A program made the position numbers and the translations under genes. 64,000 nt of DNA from positions 32,400 to 96,399 of the forward strand of contig DATLOM010000008.1 in assembly GCA_035536185.1 (NCBI GenBank), in the 5' to 3' direction. Of the stretch, positions 22,661 to 28,475 are shown in pieces. The notes under the pieces were generated by a model. The model was given only the letters and a program-made list of their open reading frames with translations, did not search any database and had not been told where the DNA came from. Origin of the DNA: Acidimicrobiales bacterium (lineage in GTDB: Bacteria > Actinomycetota > Acidimicrobiia > Acidimicrobiales > GCA-2861595). Positions within the stretch are counted from its first letter, which is position 1. Every line of letters begins with the position of its first letter.

Positions 22661-23170
22661 CTACGCGGGCCAGGCGGCGCGCAGTTTCTCGTAGGTGGTG
22701 GGCAGCGACTCGGGCAGCACCCGTACCTCCGCCACTGTCGTCATGAAGTTGGTGTCGCCGGTCCACCGGGGCAGCACGTGCAGATGGAGATGCCCGGGCA
22801 CGCCGGCACCGGCCGATTCGCCGAGGTTGGCACCCACGTTGATGCCGTCGGGGCCATAGGCCTCCTTCAGGGCCCGCACGGCCGCCTGCACGGTGGCCCA
22901 CAGCTCCGCGCTCTCGACTTCGTCAATGTCCTCCAGCTCGGCCACGTGGCGAGCGGGGACCAGCAGGAGGTGTCCGGTCGCGTACGGGTACGCGTTCAGG
23001 ACGGCGGCGCAACTGGTGCCGCGCCAGACGACGTAGCTGTCGGAGCGCAGGACCCGGCACATGGCGCAACCGTCGTCACCGTCACGATCGGCCGCCGGCG
23101 TGGCCACGTAGTCACTGCGCCACCCCGCCCACAACCTCTCCAGCCCGCCGGGCCGGTCCGGTGCGGTCAC
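22661..23170 (-). CDS. HIT-family nucleotide hydrolase (Ap4A phosphorylase-like)
   Basis: LNAYPYATGH and HLHLHVLPRW motifs. Actinobacterial thrS-HIT synteny with 4-nt overlap. Confidence 0.9.
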   Translation of the reverse strand: MTAPDRPGGLERLWAGWRSDYVATPAADRDGDDGCAMCRVLRSDSYVVWRGTSCAAVLNAYPYATGHLLLVPARHVAELEDIDEVESAELWATVQAAVRALKEAYGPDGINVGANLGESAGAGVPGHLHLHVLPRWTGDTNFMTTVAEVRVLPESLPTTYEKLRAAWPA

Positions 23171-25113
23171 GAGATGGCGCGGCTGTCGACCTCTCGGCGC
23201 AGCCGTTCGATTAGCTCCTCGACCGCCACTCCCCGCTCGGGGCGCTCGCTGCCGCGGGCGTTGACGCCCACTGTGCCGGCGGCGACGTCGTCGTCGCCCA
23301 CCACGAGGATGTACGGGAGCTTCTCCAGCTTGCCCCTCCGGATGCGGGCGCCCAGTGGCTCGTCGCCTTCGACCGTGTCAGCCCGGAAGCCCGCCTCCCG
23401 CAAACGCTGCGCAACCGACGCGGCGACCTCGTCGTGGTCGTTGCGAACGCCGAGGACACGGGCCTGCACGGGCGCCAGCCAGGTCGGGAAGGCGCCGGCG
23501 TAGTGCTCCACCAGGATCCCGAAGAAGCGCTCGATCGAGCCGAACAGCGCCCGGTGGATCATGAACGGCCGGTGGCGGGCGTTGTCGGCGCCGGTGAACT
23601 CCAGCTCGAAGCGCTGCGGTAGCTGGAAGTCCACCTGGAGGGTGGACATCTGCCAGCGCCGGCCGATGGCGTCGCGGATGTGCACGTCGATCTTCGGGGC
23701 GTAGAAGGCGCCCTCGCCCTCGGCCACCCGGAACGGGACACCAGCCCCCTCGAGGGCTTCACGAAGGGCGTCGGTCGCCACGTCCCACTCCTCGGGGTCC
23801 CCCACGTACTTCTCCGGGCGGGTGGCCAGCTCGGCCTCGAAGTCCTCGAACCCGAAGGCCTGCAGCAGGCGGATCACGAAGCCCAAAAGACTGGCCAGCT
23901 CGGCCGACAGCTGATCCGGGGTGCAGAAGATGTGGGCGTCGTCCTGGGTGAAGCCCCGGGCCCGCAGGATGCCGTGCAGCACCCCGGAGCGCTCGAAGCG
24001 GTAGACGGTGCCGAACTCGAAGAGCCTCAGGGGCAGGTCCCGGTACGAGCGCTGGCCGGCGGCGTAGATCAGGATGTGCATCGGGCAGTTCATGGGCTTG
24101 GGGTAGTACGTGGCCCCCTCCATCTCCATGGGCGGGTACATGCCTTCGGCGTACCAGGAGAGGTGCCCGGACTTCTCGAACAGGGTGGACTTGGCCAGGT
24201 GCGGCGTGTACACGAACTCGTAGCCGCCGGCTTCGTGCTCGGCCCGCGAGTAGTCCTCCATGATCTTGCGGACCAGGCCACCCTTCGGATGGAAGACGCA
24301 GAGCCCCCCGCCGATCTCCGGCGGGAAGTGGAACAGGTCGAGCTCCGCTCCGAGCTTGCGGTGGTCCCGCTTCTCGGCCTCCTCCAGCATCTGCAGATGG
24401 GCCTTGAGCGCCTTCTCCGACTCCCATGCCGTGCCGTAGATGCGCTGGAGCTGGCGCTTGTGCTCGTCACCGCGCCAGTAGGCGCCGGCCACCCGCATGA
24501 GCTTGAACCAACCCAGGCGGGAGGTCGACGGGACGTGGGGGCCGCGGCACAGGTCGATGAACTCAGGCGTGTTCCGGTAGGCGCTCACCGCACCGGGGGT
24601 CGCCCCTTCTTCGGGATCGACACCCTCGATGATCTCGATCTTGTAGGGCTGGTCGGAGAAGGTGTCGAGCCCCTCCTCGAGGGTCAGCTCCTCACGCACG
24701 AAGGGCTGGTCCTCACCCACGATCTGGCGCATCCGCTCCTCGATGCGACCGAGGTCCTCCTCGGAAAAGGCGGCGTCGCCGGGCAGGTCGAAGTCGTAGT
24801 AGAAGCCGTTCTCGATCGGTGGCCCTATGGCGAACTTGGCTCCCGGCCACAGCTGGAGCACGGCCTGGGCCAGCACGTGGGCGGTGGAGTGTCGGAGCAC
24901 CTTGCGACCGTCGTCGGTGGTGTCGGTGACGACCGCCACCTCGTCGCCGTCGGCCAGCGGAGTGGAGAGGTCGACCTCGGCGCCGTTGACCACGGCGGCC
25001 ACCGCAGCGCGCAAAAGCCGAGGCCCCACCGCTGCCGCAAGATCGGCGGCGGTGGAGCCTTCGGGAAGATCCTTGGTGGATCCGTCAGGGAGCCTGACGG
25101 TTAGACCGGCCAT
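23167..25113 (-). CDS. thrS: Threonine--tRNA ligase
   Basis: TGS domain, RHSTAH, DLCRGPHV, KPMNCP, RARGFTQDDAHIF and MIHRALFGSIERF. Confidence 0.97.
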   Translation of the reverse strand: MAGLTVRLPDGSTKDLPEGSTAADLAAAVGPRLLRAAVAAVVNGAEVDLSTPLADGDEVAVVTDTTDDGRKVLRHSTAHVLAQAVLQLWPGAKFAIGPPIENGFYYDFDLPGDAAFSEEDLGRIEERMRQIVGEDQPFVREELTLEEGLDTFSDQPYKIEIIEGVDPEEGATPGAVSAYRNTPEFIDLCRGPHVPSTSRLGWFKLMRVAGAYWRGDEHKRQLQRIYGTAWESEKALKAHLQMLEEAEKRDHRKLGAELDLFHFPPEIGGGLCVFHPKGGLVRKIMEDYSRAEHEAGGYEFVYTPHLAKSTLFEKSGHLSWYAEGMYPPMEMEGATYYPKPMNCPMHILIYAAGQRSYRDLPLRLFEFGTVYRFERSGVLHGILRARGFTQDDAHIFCTPDQLSAELASLLGFVIRLLQAFGFEDFEAELATRPEKYVGDPEEWDVATDALREALEGAGVPFRVAEGEGAFYAPKIDVHIRDAIGRRWQMSTLQVDFQLPQRFELEFTGADNARHRPFMIHRALFGSIERFFGILVEHYAGAFPTWLAPVQARVLGVRNDHDEVAASVAQRLREAGFRADTVEGDEPLGARIRRGKLEKLPYILVVGDDDVAAGTVGVNARGSERPERGVAVEELIERLRREVDSRAIS

Positions 25114-25139
25114 CGGGGGGCGACAGTACCGCCCCCCGA
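25113..25139. terminator. 10-bp GC hairpin between the CAP gene stop and the thrS start
   Basis: TCGGGGGGCG-acagtac-CGCCCCCCGA. Could be a terminator for the CAP gene or an operator. The loop holds TACTGT (-10-like) on the minus strand. Confidence 0.45.
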
Positions 25140-25155: not shown

Positions 25156-25755
25156 CTAGCGGCGGGCGCGGGCCTTGCGGACCTTGACGGTGCGGCAGGT
25201 GACCTTGCCCTTGCGGGACTTGGTGCAGACCTTCCTGGTCCCCACGGCCGGGGCGGCCACAGCCTGGGCCACGGGCCCGGCGGCCTGGACGATCTGGGCG
25301 GCGGGGGCATGGGTGCGCATGAAGTTGACCGTCACGTAGATGATCCCGGGAGGACCGTTGACCACGCCGACGCCGACCCAGTCGAAGTTCGGGTCGATCA
25401 TGTTCTTGAAGTGCAGGGGGCTGGCGATGAAGGCCTCGTGCAGAGCCTGCACGCTCGGGCCGATGCCGACGTTCTCACCGAGGCGGGCCCAGTTGGCGGG
25501 AGCCTGGCCGGCGAGGTCGGGGTTGTGGGAGATGCCACCGGCGGCGGCCATGCGACCCGACCATCTGCGGGCCACCTCGAACAGCTCACCCTTGGTGCCG
25601 AGAGCGGAGAGGCCGTGAGCGGCCCGCAACTCGTTGAGCTTCTGCACGAAGGCCATCTCGTCGGACCCGGTGTCCGCCGCGGCCGGCCCGGCAAGTGCCG
25701 TGGCCCCCGAGAGAACGACACACATTGCGACTACGGGTGCCCAGAGCTTCTTCAC
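25156..25755 (-). CDS. Secreted CAP/SCP-domain protein with basic C-terminal tail
   Basis: GTG 25755 preceded by GGAGG. Signal peptide, NELRA, ISHNP, GENVG, SPLHFKNM and VGVGV motifs. Confidence 0.85.
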   Translation of the reverse strand: MKKLWAPVVAMCVVLSGATALAGPAAADTGSDEMAFVQKLNELRAAHGLSALGTKGELFEVARRWSGRMAAAGGISHNPDLAGQAPANWARLGENVGIGPSVQALHEAFIASPLHFKNMIDPNFDWVGVGVVNGPPGIIYVTVNFMRTHAPAAQIVQAAGPVAQAVAAPAVGTRKVCTKSRKGKVTCRTVKVRKARARR

Positions 25756-25761
25756 GTTTCC

Positions 25762-25868
25762 TCCATTCGGAAGCCCGGCTGCCTTGCGAGCTTTCGCTCC
25801 GTCAGGCCCGTGGCGTTGCGTACACCCGGCTTTCACCGAGGTTGCCGTTTCGTGGATTGCCCTTACAG
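25762..25868 (-). promoter_or_regulatory. c-di-GMP-I (GEMM-I)-like riboswitch
   Basis: Minus strand reads GGCAACCTCGGT-GAAA-GCCGGGTGT-ACGCAACGCCACGGGCCTGA...GGCAGCCGGGCTTCCGAA, matching GEMM-I hallmarks (GAAA-capped P2, ACGCAA, GCCACGGGCCT, GGCAGCCGGG, CCGAA). It ends at the RBS of the CAP gene. Confidence 0.72.
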
Positions 25869-25938
25869 CATCGGTGCGCCTCCCTCCGCACCCGATGACC
25901 ATTGGCGGAATAGCCCTTGCGGGCCAGGCACCGGGCGC

Positions 25939-27150
25939 TTAGCGGCGGGCCCAGCGCTCCTGCAGGTCGGAGAGGCTGACGCCCGCCACCTTCCGCAGAG
26001 TGGCATCCACCTGGTGGTCGGTGCTGCCCGGCTCCACTTGGACCTCGCCCAGGGCACGGAAGAAGGCCGTGGGTGCCCCCAGGCCCTTCTCGGCGGCCAG
26101 GACCGACATGGCCGCCCGGCTCTCCCGGTAGGAGCGCACGATGCTCTCGGACGCACCGGTGGAGAACTCGTGGTCCCGCGGCAGCTCGGTGTCGCCGCCA
26201 CGCGGCCGACGCTCGTTGGTCGGGCGGCCGGTGGCCACCCACTCCGAGACCCCTTCGTGCACCCATGTGGGGATGAACGGCCCGACCACGGGCGCGGCGG
26301 CGGCGTGACTCAGCTCGTGCACCAGGGTCGACACCTGGAAGGGCCGGGCGTAGCGCCCCAGGCGGTCGTCCTGGATGAAGATCCGGGGGGCGGTGGTCTG
26401 GTAGCGGTCGTCGTCGATGGCCGAGTAGGAGACGAAGGCCACGAACTTGTCGAGGTCGACCGTCGACTGGAGGATGCGCTGGAGCTCTTCGACCGAGCCA
26501 GGCAGCACGAGAGGGATGCGCCCCGACCACGGTTGGTCCCAGACCCGGCTCAACTCGCTCATGCCCTCCTCGGCGATGGCCCCGAGGGCGGCGGCCCGCT
26601 CGGCCTGCTCGGGGCGGCTCACGACCAGGAAGTGCTCCGTGGGCTGGAGGCGCACCGGTCCGAGATCCCACAGCTGGTGGGACGACTCGAGCCCCAGCTC
26701 CTCCAGGTCGCTGTCGGAGGCGACGTACCAGCCGTCCCCCCGCTCCACGAAGGTCAGCCAGAGGTGTTCGACGGCGTCGCGGTCGTCGTAGTCCCGCAGC
26801 CGGTACACCTGGCGTGTCTCGGGGAGGAACGTGCGACCATCGCCGTGGCGGCCGGCGGCGGCCCGTGAGAGGTCACCTGTGTCGAAGGTGCGGGCCTGGA
26901 GCGCGTAGGACGCCAGCGGCAGCGAGGAGAGCCCGTCGAAGGAGCGACGCTGCGCCTCGCGGAACTCAGCCGGCGCCCGTGGGTCGACGGTCGCCAGGAA
27001 GGAGTCACGGTCGCCGGAGCGGACGGCCCCAGCACGGCGGTCGAGCACCTTCTGCACCGCGGTCAGGGGGTCGTCGGCGCCCCGGGCCGGTGTGGTCGGG
27101 GCGAGCCCCAGGCCGACGAGCAGGAGAACGACGGGGACGAGGCGGCGCAT
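25939..27150 (-). CDS. Secreted zinc metallopeptidase-like protein (HExxH)
   Basis: Signal peptide MRRLVPVVLLLVGLGLAP, LVHELSHA, and a downstream HEGVSEW (third ligand Glu). Confidence 0.72.
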   Translation of the reverse strand: MRRLVPVVLLLVGLGLAPTTPARGADDPLTAVQKVLDRRAGAVRSGDRDSFLATVDPRAPAEFREAQRRSFDGLSSLPLASYALQARTFDTGDLSRAAAGRHGDGRTFLPETRQVYRLRDYDDRDAVEHLWLTFVERGDGWYVASDSDLEELGLESSHQLWDLGPVRLQPTEHFLVVSRPEQAERAAALGAIAEEGMSELSRVWDQPWSGRIPLVLPGSVEELQRILQSTVDLDKFVAFVSYSAIDDDRYQTTAPRIFIQDDRLGRYARPFQVSTLVHELSHAAAAPVVGPFIPTWVHEGVSEWVATGRPTNERRPRGGDTELPRDHEFSTGASESIVRSYRESRAAMSVLAAEKGLGAPTAFFRALGEVQVEPGSTDHQVDATLRKVAGVSLSDLQERWARR

Positions 27151-27215
27151 CGGCGCCCATTGTTGTCGCGGTATCCCCCTTCGCCGCATACGGCACCGGT
27201 ACCTTTTGGCCCACG

Positions 27216-28475
27216 GTGACGGTCACCCTCCTCTCCTCGCCGGCCGATCTGCCCGCCGATCCTCCGGACGGGCTGTTCGTCCTCGTTCGGGAAACGCCGG
27301 CAGAAGAGGCCTCCGCGCTTGCCGCCACCCTCGGATGCGGCCGTCCGGTCACCGCGGCGCAGGCCGCCCTGAACCTCTCCGCCCGGGCGAGCGCCACCGC
27401 CCCCGAAGAGGTCGCTGCCGAGGCGGCCGAGCAGCGGGAGGCGGCACTCGATCTGGCCCGGGAGAGGGCGGCCGAGGCGCTCGATCGCGTGCCCACCCGC
27501 GCCCGCGGCGTCCCCCGAGAACGGCTCCAGAACGCCTCCGCGGCCGTCAGGGCGGCGGAGGCGGCGGTCCTGGACGCAAGGGCGCAGCTCGGCGAGCGGC
27601 CCGAACTGCCCGCCGAGGCCGCCCAGGCCGCCCTCGCCGCCGAGGAGGCGGTGACCGGCGCCCGTCAACAGCGGTCGGTGGGTGTCGACCGGTCGTCGAA
27701 GCTGCTGCTGGCCGCCAACGCGGCGGGCATTCTCATCGTCGCCGGCCGCATCCGCACGCCGGCACTCGATCCCCTCTTCGTGCTTGTTGCCGCGCTCCCG
27801 CTCACGGCGCTCCTCCACCTCGTGGTCACCTTGGGCGCCAACACCTGGACGGCCCGGACCGCCGCCAGTTTGCGGGCGGCGGCACTGCGTGACGCCGGCA
27901 TGGCCACCATGACCGGGCTCGTCGCCAGGAACGCCCGGGTGAAGGCCTGGACTGCACGGGCCGATGCGCTGGCCGCCGCCGAGGCCGGGCTGGCCGAGGC
28001 CCGCCGGCGGTGGACCGGCCTCACCGGAGCATCAGCCGGACCGTCGTCGATCGCCGCCCTGCTGAGGACGGTGGAAGAGGCGGAGCGGACGGCAGCCGGA
28101 CTCGCCCGGCTCGAGGCCGAGGCCGAGGCCGAAGGTGCGGCCGCGGCACCGATCGACGACCCCGCCGGCGCCCTGGTGATCCTCCTCGAAGGGGCGGCCG
28201 ACGACGCTCTGGACCAGGAGACGCTGGTGCTCCTCGAGCGCCTGCGCATGCAGGAGGTGCCCGCCCCCGTGGTGGTGGTGAGCGCGTCTTCCGACTTGGC
28301 CCGGTGGGCCGGCGCCGGGACGGTCGACACCGCGGTGGAGGGTGACGCCGAGGGCGCCGGCGCCCAGGTGCTGGACATCCGCGAGCGGGTCATGGCCAGC
28401 CTCGACCGCCTCCGGGCCCGGGCCGCCAGCTTCGGCGACCCAACCCCACCCGGCGACATGGCCGCCGAGGGCTGA
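27216..28475 (+). CDS. Hypothetical Ala-rich coiled-coil protein with two TM helices
   Basis: Real part of track ORF 26814..28475 from GTG 27216 (start approximate). Typical codon usage. Confidence 0.6.
   Translation: MTVTLLSSPADLPADPPDGLFVLVRETPAEEASALAATLGCGRPVTAAQAALNLSARASATAPEEVAAEAAEQREAALDLARERAAEALDRVPTRARGVPRERLQNASAAVRAAEAAVLDARAQLGERPELPAEAAQAALAAEEAVTGARQQRSVGVDRSSKLLLAANAAGILIVAGRIRTPALDPLFVLVAALPLTALLHLVVTLGANTWTARTAASLRAAALRDAGMATMTGLVARNARVKAWTARADALAAAEAGLAEARRRWTGLTGASAGPSSIAALLRTVEEAERTAAGLARLEAEAEAEGAAAAPIDDPAGALVILLEGAADDALDQETLVLLERLRMQEVPAPVVVVSASSDLARWAGAGTVDTAVEGDAEGAGAQVLDIRERVMASLDRLRARAASFGDPTPPGDMAAEG

What the first reader, a model, noticed from the sequence alone, without database searches (positions are those of the whole stretch)
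25753..25897. Variant c-di-GMP-I riboswitch positioned to hide the RBS of a secreted CAP protein
Seen: GEMM-I-like P2 and P3 arms. The 5' segment TCCACG can pair with CG-AA-TGGA, which includes the start of the GGAGG SD. By-eye alignment to the Vibrio Vc2 aptamer keeps G20, A47 and C92 equivalents (suggesting c-di-GMP rather than cGAMP), but GACGCAAAG reads TACGCAACG and GGCAAAC reads GGCAAC. A second GGGCAATCC copy and a hairpin (25869-25897) lie just upstream. Known: this class is mostly reported from Firmicutes and Proteobacteria. Inference: a translational OFF switch linking cyclic-dinucleotide signalling to an extracellular protein in an actinobacterium, possibly with altered specificity.
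Basis: partly seen in the sequence, partly recalled or inferred. Interest (0 to 1): 0.62.

Follow-up and report, generated by a model that had tools for sequence, protein, structure and literature searches.

The report
c-di-GMP riboswitch before secreted CAP gene
The leader of a secreted CAP-domain protein gene in this uncultured Acidimicrobiales bacterium holds a genuine, ordinary class-I c-di-GMP riboswitch whose closing helix includes part of the ribosome-binding site, so it most likely blocks translation when c-di-GMP is high.

Summary
Rfam's c-di-GMP-I model (RF01051) matches window 25766-25856 on the minus strand over its full length, at 49.4 bits (gathering score 35, E 1.2e-6). The Shine-Dalgarno GGAGG (25760-25764) starts 2 nt after the aptamer, and the GTG start of a 199-aa CAP-domain gene with a signal peptide follows 10 nt after it.

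The closing helix P1 (UCCACG with CG-AA-UGGA) takes in the first three SD bases. It is supported by compensatory changes in relatives. The likely mechanism is a translational OFF switch by direct SD occlusion, which is inferred and not shown.

The "variant / altered specificity" idea is not supported. The G20, A47 and C92 equivalents are canonical, and the odd bases fall within this lineage's natural variation. The "second GGGCAATCC copy" is not conserved.

There is no taxonomic surprise: RF01051 passes its cut-off in 170 of 401 sampled genomes of the phylum, and this genome has five copies.

About 40 of 90 copies in the family precede CAP genes. Most lie behind a WhiG/sigma-28-type promoter motif. 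The genome also encodes WhiG and RsiG.

Verdict: a new member of a known class, of modest interest.

The parts
25766..25856 (-). c-di-GMP-I (GEMM-I) aptamer. Includes the GAAA tetraloop (25834-25831), the G20 equivalent (G25846), A47 equivalent (A25817), C44 equivalent (C25820), G83 equivalent (G25779) and C92 equivalent (C25770).
   Evidence: Rfam RF01051, 49.4 bits against gathering score 35, E 1.2e-6, full model. 89-96% identical among four species of the genus, against 79-85% for the CDS and 57-77% for the upstream 90 nt.
25851..25856 (-). P1 5' strand, UCCACG.
   Evidence: Pairs with 25762-25769. In 38 related leaders 82% of cells are paired, against 15-48% when the partner is slid. Three pairs show compensatory changes.
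25762..25769 (-). P1 3' strand, CG-AA-UGGA. Its last three bases (GGA) are the first three of the SD.
   Evidence: Sequence. The outermost pair is C-G in 29 leaders and U-A in 3 leaders of this genus (G000, G001, G002), where the A is the A of GGAGG.
25760..25764 (-). Shine-Dalgarno GGAGG.
   Evidence: Conserved GGAGG, 4-5 nt before the conserved GTG, in all four orthologues of the genus.
25156..25755 (-). CAP-domain (SCP/PR-1/YkwD-like) protein gene, 199 aa, GTG start. N-terminus VKKLWAPVVAMCVVLSGATALAGPAAA|D looks like a signal peptide. The C-terminal tail is basic and carries two Cys.
   Evidence: Pfam PF00188 E 1.4e-14. A weak TIGR02909 YkwD hit, below its cut-off. Orthologues at 69-80% identity in G001-G003. 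The signal peptide is judged by eye only.
25869..25897 (-). Upstream hairpin CAUCGG(G)UGCG-loop-CGCACCGAUG. Its 3' arm (25875-25869, ACCGATG) is a WhiG/sigma-28-type -10-like box.
   Evidence: -18 kcal/mol, z -3.45. The stem base is conserved, and the inner stem changes while staying paired in G003 (by eye). (G/A)CCGATG lies 14-15 nt before the aptamer in all four orthologues. No T-tract follows and the terminator scan found nothing.
25897..25915 (-). Conserved palindrome GGCTATT-N5-AATGGTC: an operator-like site or a small hairpin.
   Evidence: Conserved in all four loci of the genus, while the rest of the spacer is only 57-77% identical. Function unknown.
25939..27189 (-). Upstream gene. Encodes a secreted-looking protein of up to 416 aa with an HExxH (HELSH) motif and no Pfam family.
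   Evidence: ORF list. No Pfam hit. A very weak flagellinolysin hit, E 0.0064, far below its cut-off. Synteny is conserved in the genus.
23167..25113 (-). thrS (threonyl-tRNA synthetase), 42 nt downstream of the CAP gene.
   Evidence: Pfam tRNA-synt_2b, TGS, HGTP_anticodon and tRNA_SAD. Synteny is conserved in the genus.

Best explanation
This is a standard class-I c-di-GMP riboswitch (GEMM-I, RF01051) acting as a compact translational OFF switch for a secreted CAP-domain protein.

Mechanism. The aptamer is closed by helix P1: 5' UCCACG pairs with 3' CG-AA-UGGA. The 3' strand of P1 runs straight into the Shine-Dalgarno sequence, so G25764, G25763 and A25762 of GGAGG are P1 base pairs. The folded aptamer ends only 10 nt before the GTG start.
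- At low c-di-GMP, P1 is marginally stable, the SD is single-stranded and the CAP protein is made.
- At high c-di-GMP, the ligand binds: one guanine pairs with the C92 equivalent, the other contacts the G20 equivalent, and the A47 equivalent lies in the same pocket. This locks P1, hides part of the SD, and places a compact tertiary fold inside the 30S landing site. Translation falls.

Shown here: aptamer membership, the P1 geometry and its covariation, conservation above that of the coding sequence, and the presence of c-di-GMP enzymes in the genome.

Inferred: ligand binding, the direction of the switch (OFF), and its translational level.

Layout. This design looks like a shortened derivative of the family's usual 40-60-nt platform (P1 3' strand UGGGGGC, anti-SD GCCCUCC(GUGGG), then SD). 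In this genus the P1 3' strand itself has become the SD: UGGGGG has changed to UGGAGG, with a compensating C-to-U change on the 5' strand in three of the four species.
For: - RF01051 at 49.4 bits against a gathering score of 35, full length.
- The G20, A47, C92, C44 and G83 equivalents and the GAAA tetraloop are present in the cmscan alignment. Their roles in the reference aptamer Vc2 are described in PMC5888326 and PMC11705072.
- P1: 82% of cells paired against 15-48% when slid, with three pairs showing compensatory change, including U-A at the SD position in this genus.
- Aptamer plus SD is 89-96% identical across four species, against 79-85% for the CDS.
- Only 10 nt separate the aptamer from the start codon, and no terminator-like site was found.
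- With P1 enforced, folding reproduces P2 and P3, and the mean unpaired probability of the SD falls from 0.81-1.00 to 0.21-0.40 in the four orthologues. P1 is only about 1-2 kcal/mol better than the alternatives, so it is tunable by ligand.
- The genome has 17 GGDEF matches and four further GEMM-I copies, all before secreted-looking proteins.
- Vc2, before tfoY, is reported as a c-di-GMP off-switch (abstract of bioRxiv 10.1101/617340).
Against: - No experiment and no transcript data.
- Only three of the five SD bases lie in P1.
- The unconstrained minimum-free-energy fold of the leader is not the aptamer and is no better than shuffles (z -0.24). I take this to reflect a fold that depends on tertiary and ligand contacts.
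- One pair next to the pocket is a C-U mismatch (C25815 with U25772). The score is the lowest of the five copies in the genome, so affinity may be reduced.
- G003 has a C-A mismatch at the outermost P1 pair.
Confidence: 0.68

Rival explanations
1. The aptamer binds c-di-GMP, but control acts mainly on the transcript. Either Rho-dependent termination or RNA decay follows the loss of translation, or the upstream hairpin (25869-25897) attenuates read-through from the HExxH gene. The SD overlap would then be secondary.
For: The stable conserved hairpin lies between the upstream gene and the aptamer. The three genes are syntenic and on one strand. No clear -35 element exists for a promoter of the CAP gene's own.
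Against: No terminator-like element lies between the aptamer and the start codon. The P1/SD overlap is conserved and covaries. Rho-dependent effects would be a consequence of translational repression, not an alternative to it.
Confidence: 0.15
2. The aptamer has altered ligand specificity or strongly altered affinity (for example 3',3'-cGAMP or another dinucleotide) because of the A-to-C change in CGCAAAG, the U before C92 and the AAC bulge.
For: CGCAACG occurs in only 5 of 90 family copies and UUCCGAA in 4 of 90. The score of 49.4 bits is below the 53-63 bits of the other four copies in this genome. The C-U mismatch lies next to the pocket (NC line).
Against: The G20 equivalent is G, and from my own knowledge of the GEMM-Ib literature an A at this position goes with cGAMP selectivity. 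The C92 and A47 equivalents are canonical (roles in PMC5888326). The same-genus orthologue G001 has the consensus CGCAAAG and UACCGAA before the same gene, so the changes look like neutral or tuning drift. The position before C92 is variable across the family: A, G, C or U.
Confidence: 0.07
3. The element is a decaying relic that no longer switches, and the CAP gene is expressed constitutively from the strong SD.
For: It has the lowest score in the genome. There is a mismatch beside the pocket. The ancestral anti-SD platform has been lost.
Against: The aptamer is more conserved than the coding sequence across four species. The G-to-A change that created GGAGG is compensated by C-to-U on the other P1 strand in three of the four. 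All ligand-contact and tertiary-contact bases are kept.
Confidence: 0.08

Closest known systems
Vc2, the c-di-GMP-I riboswitch in the tfoY leader of Vibrio cholerae (structural reference of RF01051)
   Same: Same aptamer class with the same pocket bases (G20, A47, C92). The P1 layout is the same: two pairs, a bulged A, then further pairs. Vc2 is reported to act as an off-switch (abstract of bioRxiv 10.1101/617340; PMC5888326; PMC11705072).
   Different: Here the P1 3' strand is itself the start of the SD, and the start codon is 10 nt from the aptamer. P1 has a two-base AA bulge. The tetraloop receptor reads CCUGAC...CAAGG. The host is an Acidimicrobiales actinobacterium and the target is a CAP-domain protein.
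The other GEMM-I leaders of CAP genes in the same bacterial family (for example G000:C36:1206-1294 in this genome, L001)
   Same: A nearly identical aptamer (same P3 arm), the same gene family downstream, and the same predicted logic (c-di-GMP turns expression off).
   Different: Those leaders carry a 40-60-nt platform: UGGGGGC, then anti-SD GCCCUCC(GUGGG), then the SD. They also have a clear CTCAAG-N15-GCCGA(T/A/C)A promoter motif. This locus has lost the platform, so the SD is fused to P1, and it keeps only the -10-like box.
Riboswitches whose SD is part of the aptamer helix (SAM-II, SAM-III/SMK box, preQ1-II; from my own knowledge, not tested here)
   Same: Direct occlusion of the SD by a ligand-stabilised helix, with no separate expression platform.
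   Different: A different aptamer fold and ligand. Here only three of the five SD bases are paired.
The RsiG-(c-di-GMP)2-sigma-WhiG switch of Streptomyces venezuelae (Gallagher 2020, PMC7005675)
   Same: The genome encodes a FliA/WhiG sigma factor (TIGR02479, 276 bits) and an RsiG-like protein (PF22802, 86 bits) carrying the ExxxSxxRxxxQxxxD motif. Most family copies of the riboswitch lie behind a WhiG-type promoter with N16 spacing, the spacing reported for WhiG targets.
   Different: This is protein-level control of transcription initiation, not an RNA switch. At this particular locus the -35 element is missing, so the link is uncertain.

Membership tests
c-di-GMP-I riboswitch (GEMM-I, Rfam RF01051) | Covariance-model score at or above Rfam's gathering score, over the full model. 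| tested here: met
   49.4 bits against 35, E 1.2e-6, model positions 1-87 of 87. The same score was found in the whole-genome search.
c-di-GMP-I riboswitch (GEMM-I, Rfam RF01051) | Ligand-contact nucleotides G20, A47 and C92 (Vc2 numbering). | tested here: met
   G25846, A25817 and C25770 align to the corresponding model positions. Their roles are described in PMC5888326 and PMC11705072. The mapping from Vc2 numbering to model positions rests on my own knowledge of the Vc2 sequence.
c-di-GMP-I riboswitch (GEMM-I, Rfam RF01051) | P2 helix capped by a GNRA tetraloop, and a P3 helix with a tetraloop-receptor internal loop. | tested here: inconclusive
   The GAAA loop (25834-25831) and both helices are present. 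The receptor reads CCUGAC...GCAAGG where the classical 11-nt receptor has CCUAAG...UAUGG. This form is the consensus of the whole family, but docking cannot be tested here.
c-di-GMP-I riboswitch (GEMM-I, Rfam RF01051) | Inter-helix pair C44-G83 and the GC pair closing P2. | tested here: met
   C25820 lies in UAC, and G25779 lies in the AG bulge. G25845-C25818 and C25844-G25819 are aligned as pairs.
c-di-GMP-I riboswitch (GEMM-I, Rfam RF01051) | P1 helix closing the three-way junction. | tested here: met
   Six pairs. 82% of cells paired against 15-48% when slid, three pairs with compensatory change, and 0 of 500 shuffles reach the observed covariation score.
c-di-GMP-I riboswitch (GEMM-I, Rfam RF01051) | Selective, high-affinity binding of c-di-GMP. 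| not testable with these tools
   Needs in-line probing, ITC or a gel shift.
Translational OFF riboswitch by SD occlusion | The SD or start codon lies within a ligand-stabilised helix, with no intrinsic terminator between aptamer and start. | tested here: met
   GGA of GGAGG lies in P1. The start codon is 10 nt after the aptamer. No terminator-like site was found. This layout is conserved in four species.
Translational OFF riboswitch by SD occlusion | Ligand-dependent drop in 30S binding or in translation. | not testable with these tools
   Needs toeprinting or a reporter fusion.
WhiG/sigma-28-type promoter (TAAA-N15/16-GCCGATAA) | A -10 box GCCGATAA-like and a -35 box TAAA/TCAA-like at N15-16. 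| tested here: not met
   At this locus only ACCGATG (25875-25869) is present, and no T[ACG]AA[GC] lies at N13-17. By contrast, 54 of 90 family copies have the full motif, against 0.9% of random genome windows.

The most novel reading that the evidence does not exclude
In this non-flagellate Acidimicrobiales lineage, secreted CAP-domain proteins may belong to a c-di-GMP regulon that is gated twice by the same messenger. The first gate would be at transcription initiation, through sigma-WhiG held by an RsiG-type anti-sigma factor. The second would be at translation, through GEMM-I riboswitches. The locus studied here would be an evolutionary derivative in which both layers were streamlined: the platform deleted so that P1 itself became the SD, and the promoter remodelled with an added palindromic operator. 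If so, CAP proteins would be markers of the low-c-di-GMP state in these soil bacteria.
Probability: 0.3. Interest if true: 0.55.

Novelty: new member of a known kind. Interest (0 to 1): 0.3.

Why it matters
On its own this is one more GEMM-I riboswitch with a textbook way of hiding a ribosome-binding site.

Its value is as a clean, minimal example. The aptamer plus 10 nt forms the whole switch, which makes it convenient for testing c-di-GMP-dependent translational control in high-GC actinobacteria. It is also one data point in a wider pattern: about 40 of 90 GEMM-I copies in this bacterial family precede CAP-domain genes, usually behind WhiG-type promoters, in genomes that also encode RsiG.

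No paper in the held library links c-di-GMP riboswitches to CAP/YkwD proteins. The function of bacterial CAP proteins is poorly known, so knowing that they are switched off by c-di-GMP would give a handle on it.

Tried and rejected
- **Alternative 'apo' helix.** GGGCUUC (the aptamer 3' side including C92) could pair with GAAGCUC in codons 2-4, as seen in the minimum-free-energy fold. It is absent in G001, whose aptamer has the consensus A before C92, so I rejected it as a conserved anti-aptamer.
- **5' CACG pairing with CGUG at the start codon.** Only 4 bp, and not conserved in G001 or G002. Rejected.
- **Second GGGCAATCC as an alternative aptamer register.** Not conserved and not used by the covariance model. 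Rejected.
- **Equilibrium folding of the long platforms of relatives, to read the ON/OFF logic.** The anti-SD/SD hairpin dominates whether or not P1 is allowed. The switch there must be kinetic, so this analysis supports the OFF logic only through the complementarity pattern.
- **Sigma-70 promoter and intrinsic terminator scans of 25600-26100.** Nothing found.
- **PMC5737381.** Searched for the c-di-GMP-I-GGC and -UAU variant motifs and found nothing usable.
- **Flagellin.** None in the genome, so the sigma factor is WhiG-like rather than flagellar.

Full report
**What is there**

A scan of the whole window against Rfam 15 gives two matches above gathering score. One is a tRNA. The other is RF01051 (c-di-GMP-I) at 25766-25856 on the minus strand: 49.4 bits against a cut-off of 35, E 1.2e-6, covering all 87 model positions.

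Read on the minus strand, the RNA is UCCACGAAACGGCAAC-[P2, GAAA loop]-UGUACGCAACGCC-[P3]-GGGCUUCCGAA|UGGAGGAAACGUG. The SD GGAGG lies at 25764-25760 and the GTG start at 25755-25753.

The gene behind it (25156-25755) encodes 199 aa with a CAP domain (PF00188, E 1.4e-14). Its N-terminus (VKKLWAPVVAMCVVLSGATALAGPAAA|D) looks like a Sec signal peptide. That is a judgement by eye, because no predictor was available.

**Is it a canonical aptamer?**

In the cmscan alignment, these bases stand at their expected model positions:
- the G before the G-C pair that closes P2 (G25846, the G20 equivalent)
- the first A after that pair (A25817, A47)
- the first C of CCGAA (C25770, C92)
- the C of the GAC triplet (C25820, C44)
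- the G of the AG bulge (G25779, G83)
- the GAAA tetraloop

In the reference aptamer Vc2, one guanine of c-di-GMP pairs with C92, the other contacts G20, and A47 lies in the pocket (PMC5888326; PMC11705072). From my own knowledge, cGAMP-selective GEMM-Ib RNAs carry A at position 20. Here it is G.

Among 90 family copies:
- the three bases after G-C read AAC in 23
- the GAC triplet varies at its first base (CAC 9, UAC 2, and so on)
- CGCAACG occurs in 5 and CGCAAGG in 4
- the base before C92 can be A, G, C or U

The same-genus orthologue G001 has the consensus CGCAAAG and UACCGAA before the same gene. The one structural cost is a C-U mismatch (C25815 with U25772) at the base of P3. This mismatch, with the other deviations, probably explains why this is the lowest-scoring of the genome's five copies. 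I find no support for altered specificity, although affinity tuning cannot be excluded.

**P1 and the ribosome-binding site**

The Rfam model does not include P1. In Vc2, P1a pairs G14-C93, C13-G94, then a bulged A95, then A12-U96 and onward. The involvement of G14, G94 and U96 in P1a is stated in PMC11705072.

The same layout here gives G25851-C25769, C25852-G25768, a bulged AA, then A25853-U25765, C25854-G25764, C25855-G25763 and U25856-A25762.

I tested this helix on an alignment of 38 non-identical CAP-type leaders from the family (A1):
- 82% of cells form standard pairs, against 15-48% when the 3' partner is slid by 1-3 columns.
- Three of the six pairs show changes on both sides.
- None of 500 shuffles reaches the observed covariation score.

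The outermost pair is the informative one. It is C-G in 29 leaders and U-A in three (G000, G001, G002). All three belong to the genus of this window, and the A is the A of GGAGG. So the G-to-A change that turned UGGGGG into UGGAGG was matched by C-to-U on the 5' strand in three of the four species. G003 has a C-A mismatch at this pair.

The first three SD bases are therefore part of P1, and the aptamer ends 10 nt before the start codon.

**How it most likely works**

There is no room for a terminator, and none is found. The simplest mechanism is direct occlusion. Ligand binding locks P1, pairs GGA of the SD, and puts a compact folded domain inside the 30S landing site.

Nearest-neighbour folding is compatible with this but does not prove it:
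- With P1 enforced, the rest folds into P2 and P3.
- The P1-containing structure is about 1-2 kcal/mol better than the best structure without P1 in the four orthologues, which is marginal and so tunable by ligand.
- The mean unpaired probability of the SD falls from 0.81-1.00 to 0.21-0.40.

The unconstrained fold of a longer leader is not the aptamer and is no more stable than shuffles (z -0.24). I read that as neutral, because this fold depends on tertiary and ligand contacts.

Purifying selection is evident. Aptamer plus SD is 89-96% identical among four species. The first 450 nt of the CDS are 79-85% identical and the upstream 90 nt are 57-77% identical.

The direction of the switch (OFF) and its level (translation) are inferences. 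Vc2, before tfoY, is reported as an off-switch (abstract of bioRxiv 10.1101/617340).

**Context in the genome and lineage**

The window lies on contig C8 of a 3.04-Mb, 79-contig assembly. Its closest named relatives are 'Acidimicrobiales bacterium' MAGs.

The genome holds five RF01051 matches. One precedes a larger CAP paralogue. Three precede other proteins with signal-peptide-like N-termini. It also has 17 GGDEF matches.

In the same GTDB family nearly every genome has 2-7 copies. Of 90 copies fetched, about 40 lie before CAP-domain ORFs (blastp).

Across the phylum, 170 of 401 evenly drawn genomes have a match above the cut-off. A GEMM-I riboswitch in an actinobacterium is therefore not unusual in today's genome collections.

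Most CAP leaders in the family have a 40-60-nt platform: the P1 3' strand extended to UGGGGGC, an anti-SD GCCCUCC often followed by GUGGG, then the SD. The anti-SD segment is complementary to both P1 strands (UGGGGGC and CCCACG). This suggests strand exchange: a free P1 captures the anti-SD and the gene is ON; a ligand-locked P1 releases it to pair with the SD and the gene is OFF. Equilibrium folding does not show this, because the anti-SD/SD hairpin wins in both states. The switch in those leaders would have to be kinetic.

The four species of this genus lack the platform entirely (start codon at +10 or +11). The locus looks like a deletion derivative that keeps the same logic with fewer parts.

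**The upstream hairpin and the promoter question**

Upstream of 54 of the 90 family copies there is T[ACG]AA[GC]-N13-17-CCGA, typically CTCAAG-N15-GCCGATA, and 44 of the 54 share one spacing. The same pattern occurs in 0.9% of random 90-nt windows of this genome.

This matches the flagellar/WhiG sigma consensus. With N16 spacing it matches the spacing reported for sigma-WhiG targets in Streptomyces (PMC7005675).

The genome encodes:
- a FliA/WhiG-family sigma factor above NCBIfam's cut-off (276 bits against 189.6)
- an RsiG-like protein (PF22802, 86 bits) with the c-di-GMP-binding ExxxSxxRxxxQxxxD motif
- no flagellin

The other copies in this genome carry the motif well (C36, C18:184884) or approximately (C18:183008, C8:136143).

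The locus under study does not. It has only (G/A)CCGATG, 14-15 nt before the aptamer. There is no -35 element at the right distance.

Instead, a palindrome GGCYATT-N5-AATGGTC and the hairpin (-18 kcal/mol, z -3.45) are conserved. In G003 the inner stem of the hairpin differs in sequence but still pairs, by eye. I cannot tell whether the hairpin is the terminator of the upstream HExxH gene, part of the leader, or a by-product of promoter and operator DNA.

**Comparison, novelty and earlier notes**

This is a member of RF01051 by score, pocket bases, tertiary-contact bases and P1. Ligand binding is untested.

It works like Vc2 and like SD-in-aptamer riboswitches generally. Papers in the held library do not link c-di-GMP riboswitches to CAP/YkwD proteins or to WhiG promoters.

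Earlier AI notes of this scan describe the same riboswitch-CAP-WhiG pattern in other Acidimicrobiales genomes. I reached the promoter and CAP observations independently, before reading them. I tested the RsiG lead in this genome myself.

What is particular to this locus is the collapsed platform, with P1 fused to the SD, and the remodelled promoter region.

**Verdict**

It is a new member of a known kind, of modest interest.

Noticed in passing
window 25115-25137 (-): A perfect 8-bp G+C hairpin, GGGGGGCG-guacugu-CGCCCCCC, ends 1 nt before the thrS ATG (25113). It is conserved in the three other species of the genus. It could be the CAP gene's terminator or a thrS leader or operator. No obvious SD for thrS is visible.
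   Followed up: partly
window 25897-25915 (-): A palindrome GGCTATT-N5-AATGGTC is conserved in all four loci of the genus, between the upstream gene's stop codon and the hairpin. It looks like an operator. Its function is unknown.
   Followed up: partly
own genome G000:C56:41864-42583 (-) and G000:C45:18742-19419 (+) (L091): An RsiG-like protein (PF22802, 86 bits, with an EGELSYLRRLVQGRLD motif) and a FliA/WhiG sigma factor (TIGR02479, 276 bits) in a genome with no flagellin match. Together these are the components of a WhiG/RsiG c-di-GMP switch outside Streptomyces.
   Followed up: partly
L001-L090 (90 GEMM-I copies of the family); in the own genome C36:1206-1294, C18:183008-183082, C18:184884-184958 and C8:136143-136217: A WhiG/sigma-28-type promoter motif, CTCAAG-N15-GCCGA(T/A/C)A, lies 11-41 nt before the aptamer in 54 of 90 copies, against 0.9% of random windows. 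About 40 of the 90 copies precede CAP-domain genes.
   Followed up: yes
L001 (G000:C36) and most CAP leaders with long platforms, e.g. L028, L020, L033: The anti-SD segment GCCCUCCGUGGG is complementary to both P1 strands (UGGGGGC and CCCACG), which suggests a strand-exchange platform. Equilibrium folding keeps the SD paired in both states, so the switch would be kinetic.
   Followed up: partly
window 25939-27189 (-), and 27195-27225 (-): The upstream gene encodes a secreted-looking protein with HELSH (an HExxH motif) and no Pfam family. Its likely true start is the second Met, before the hydrophobic segment. A weak WhiG-like motif, CCAAAAG-N17-GGCGAAGG, lies just upstream.
   Followed up: no
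L007, L011, L014, L015, L025, L034, L045, L050 and others: A second subgroup of family GEMM-I copies has the 5' strand UUCUGA/UCCUGA, a 3' end of CCUGG/CCUGA, and a long conserved downstream leader (...GGGCGAGCCCGA...). It lies behind a GGCGATA -10 box and is not linked to CAP genes. I did not examine its target genes.
   Followed up: no
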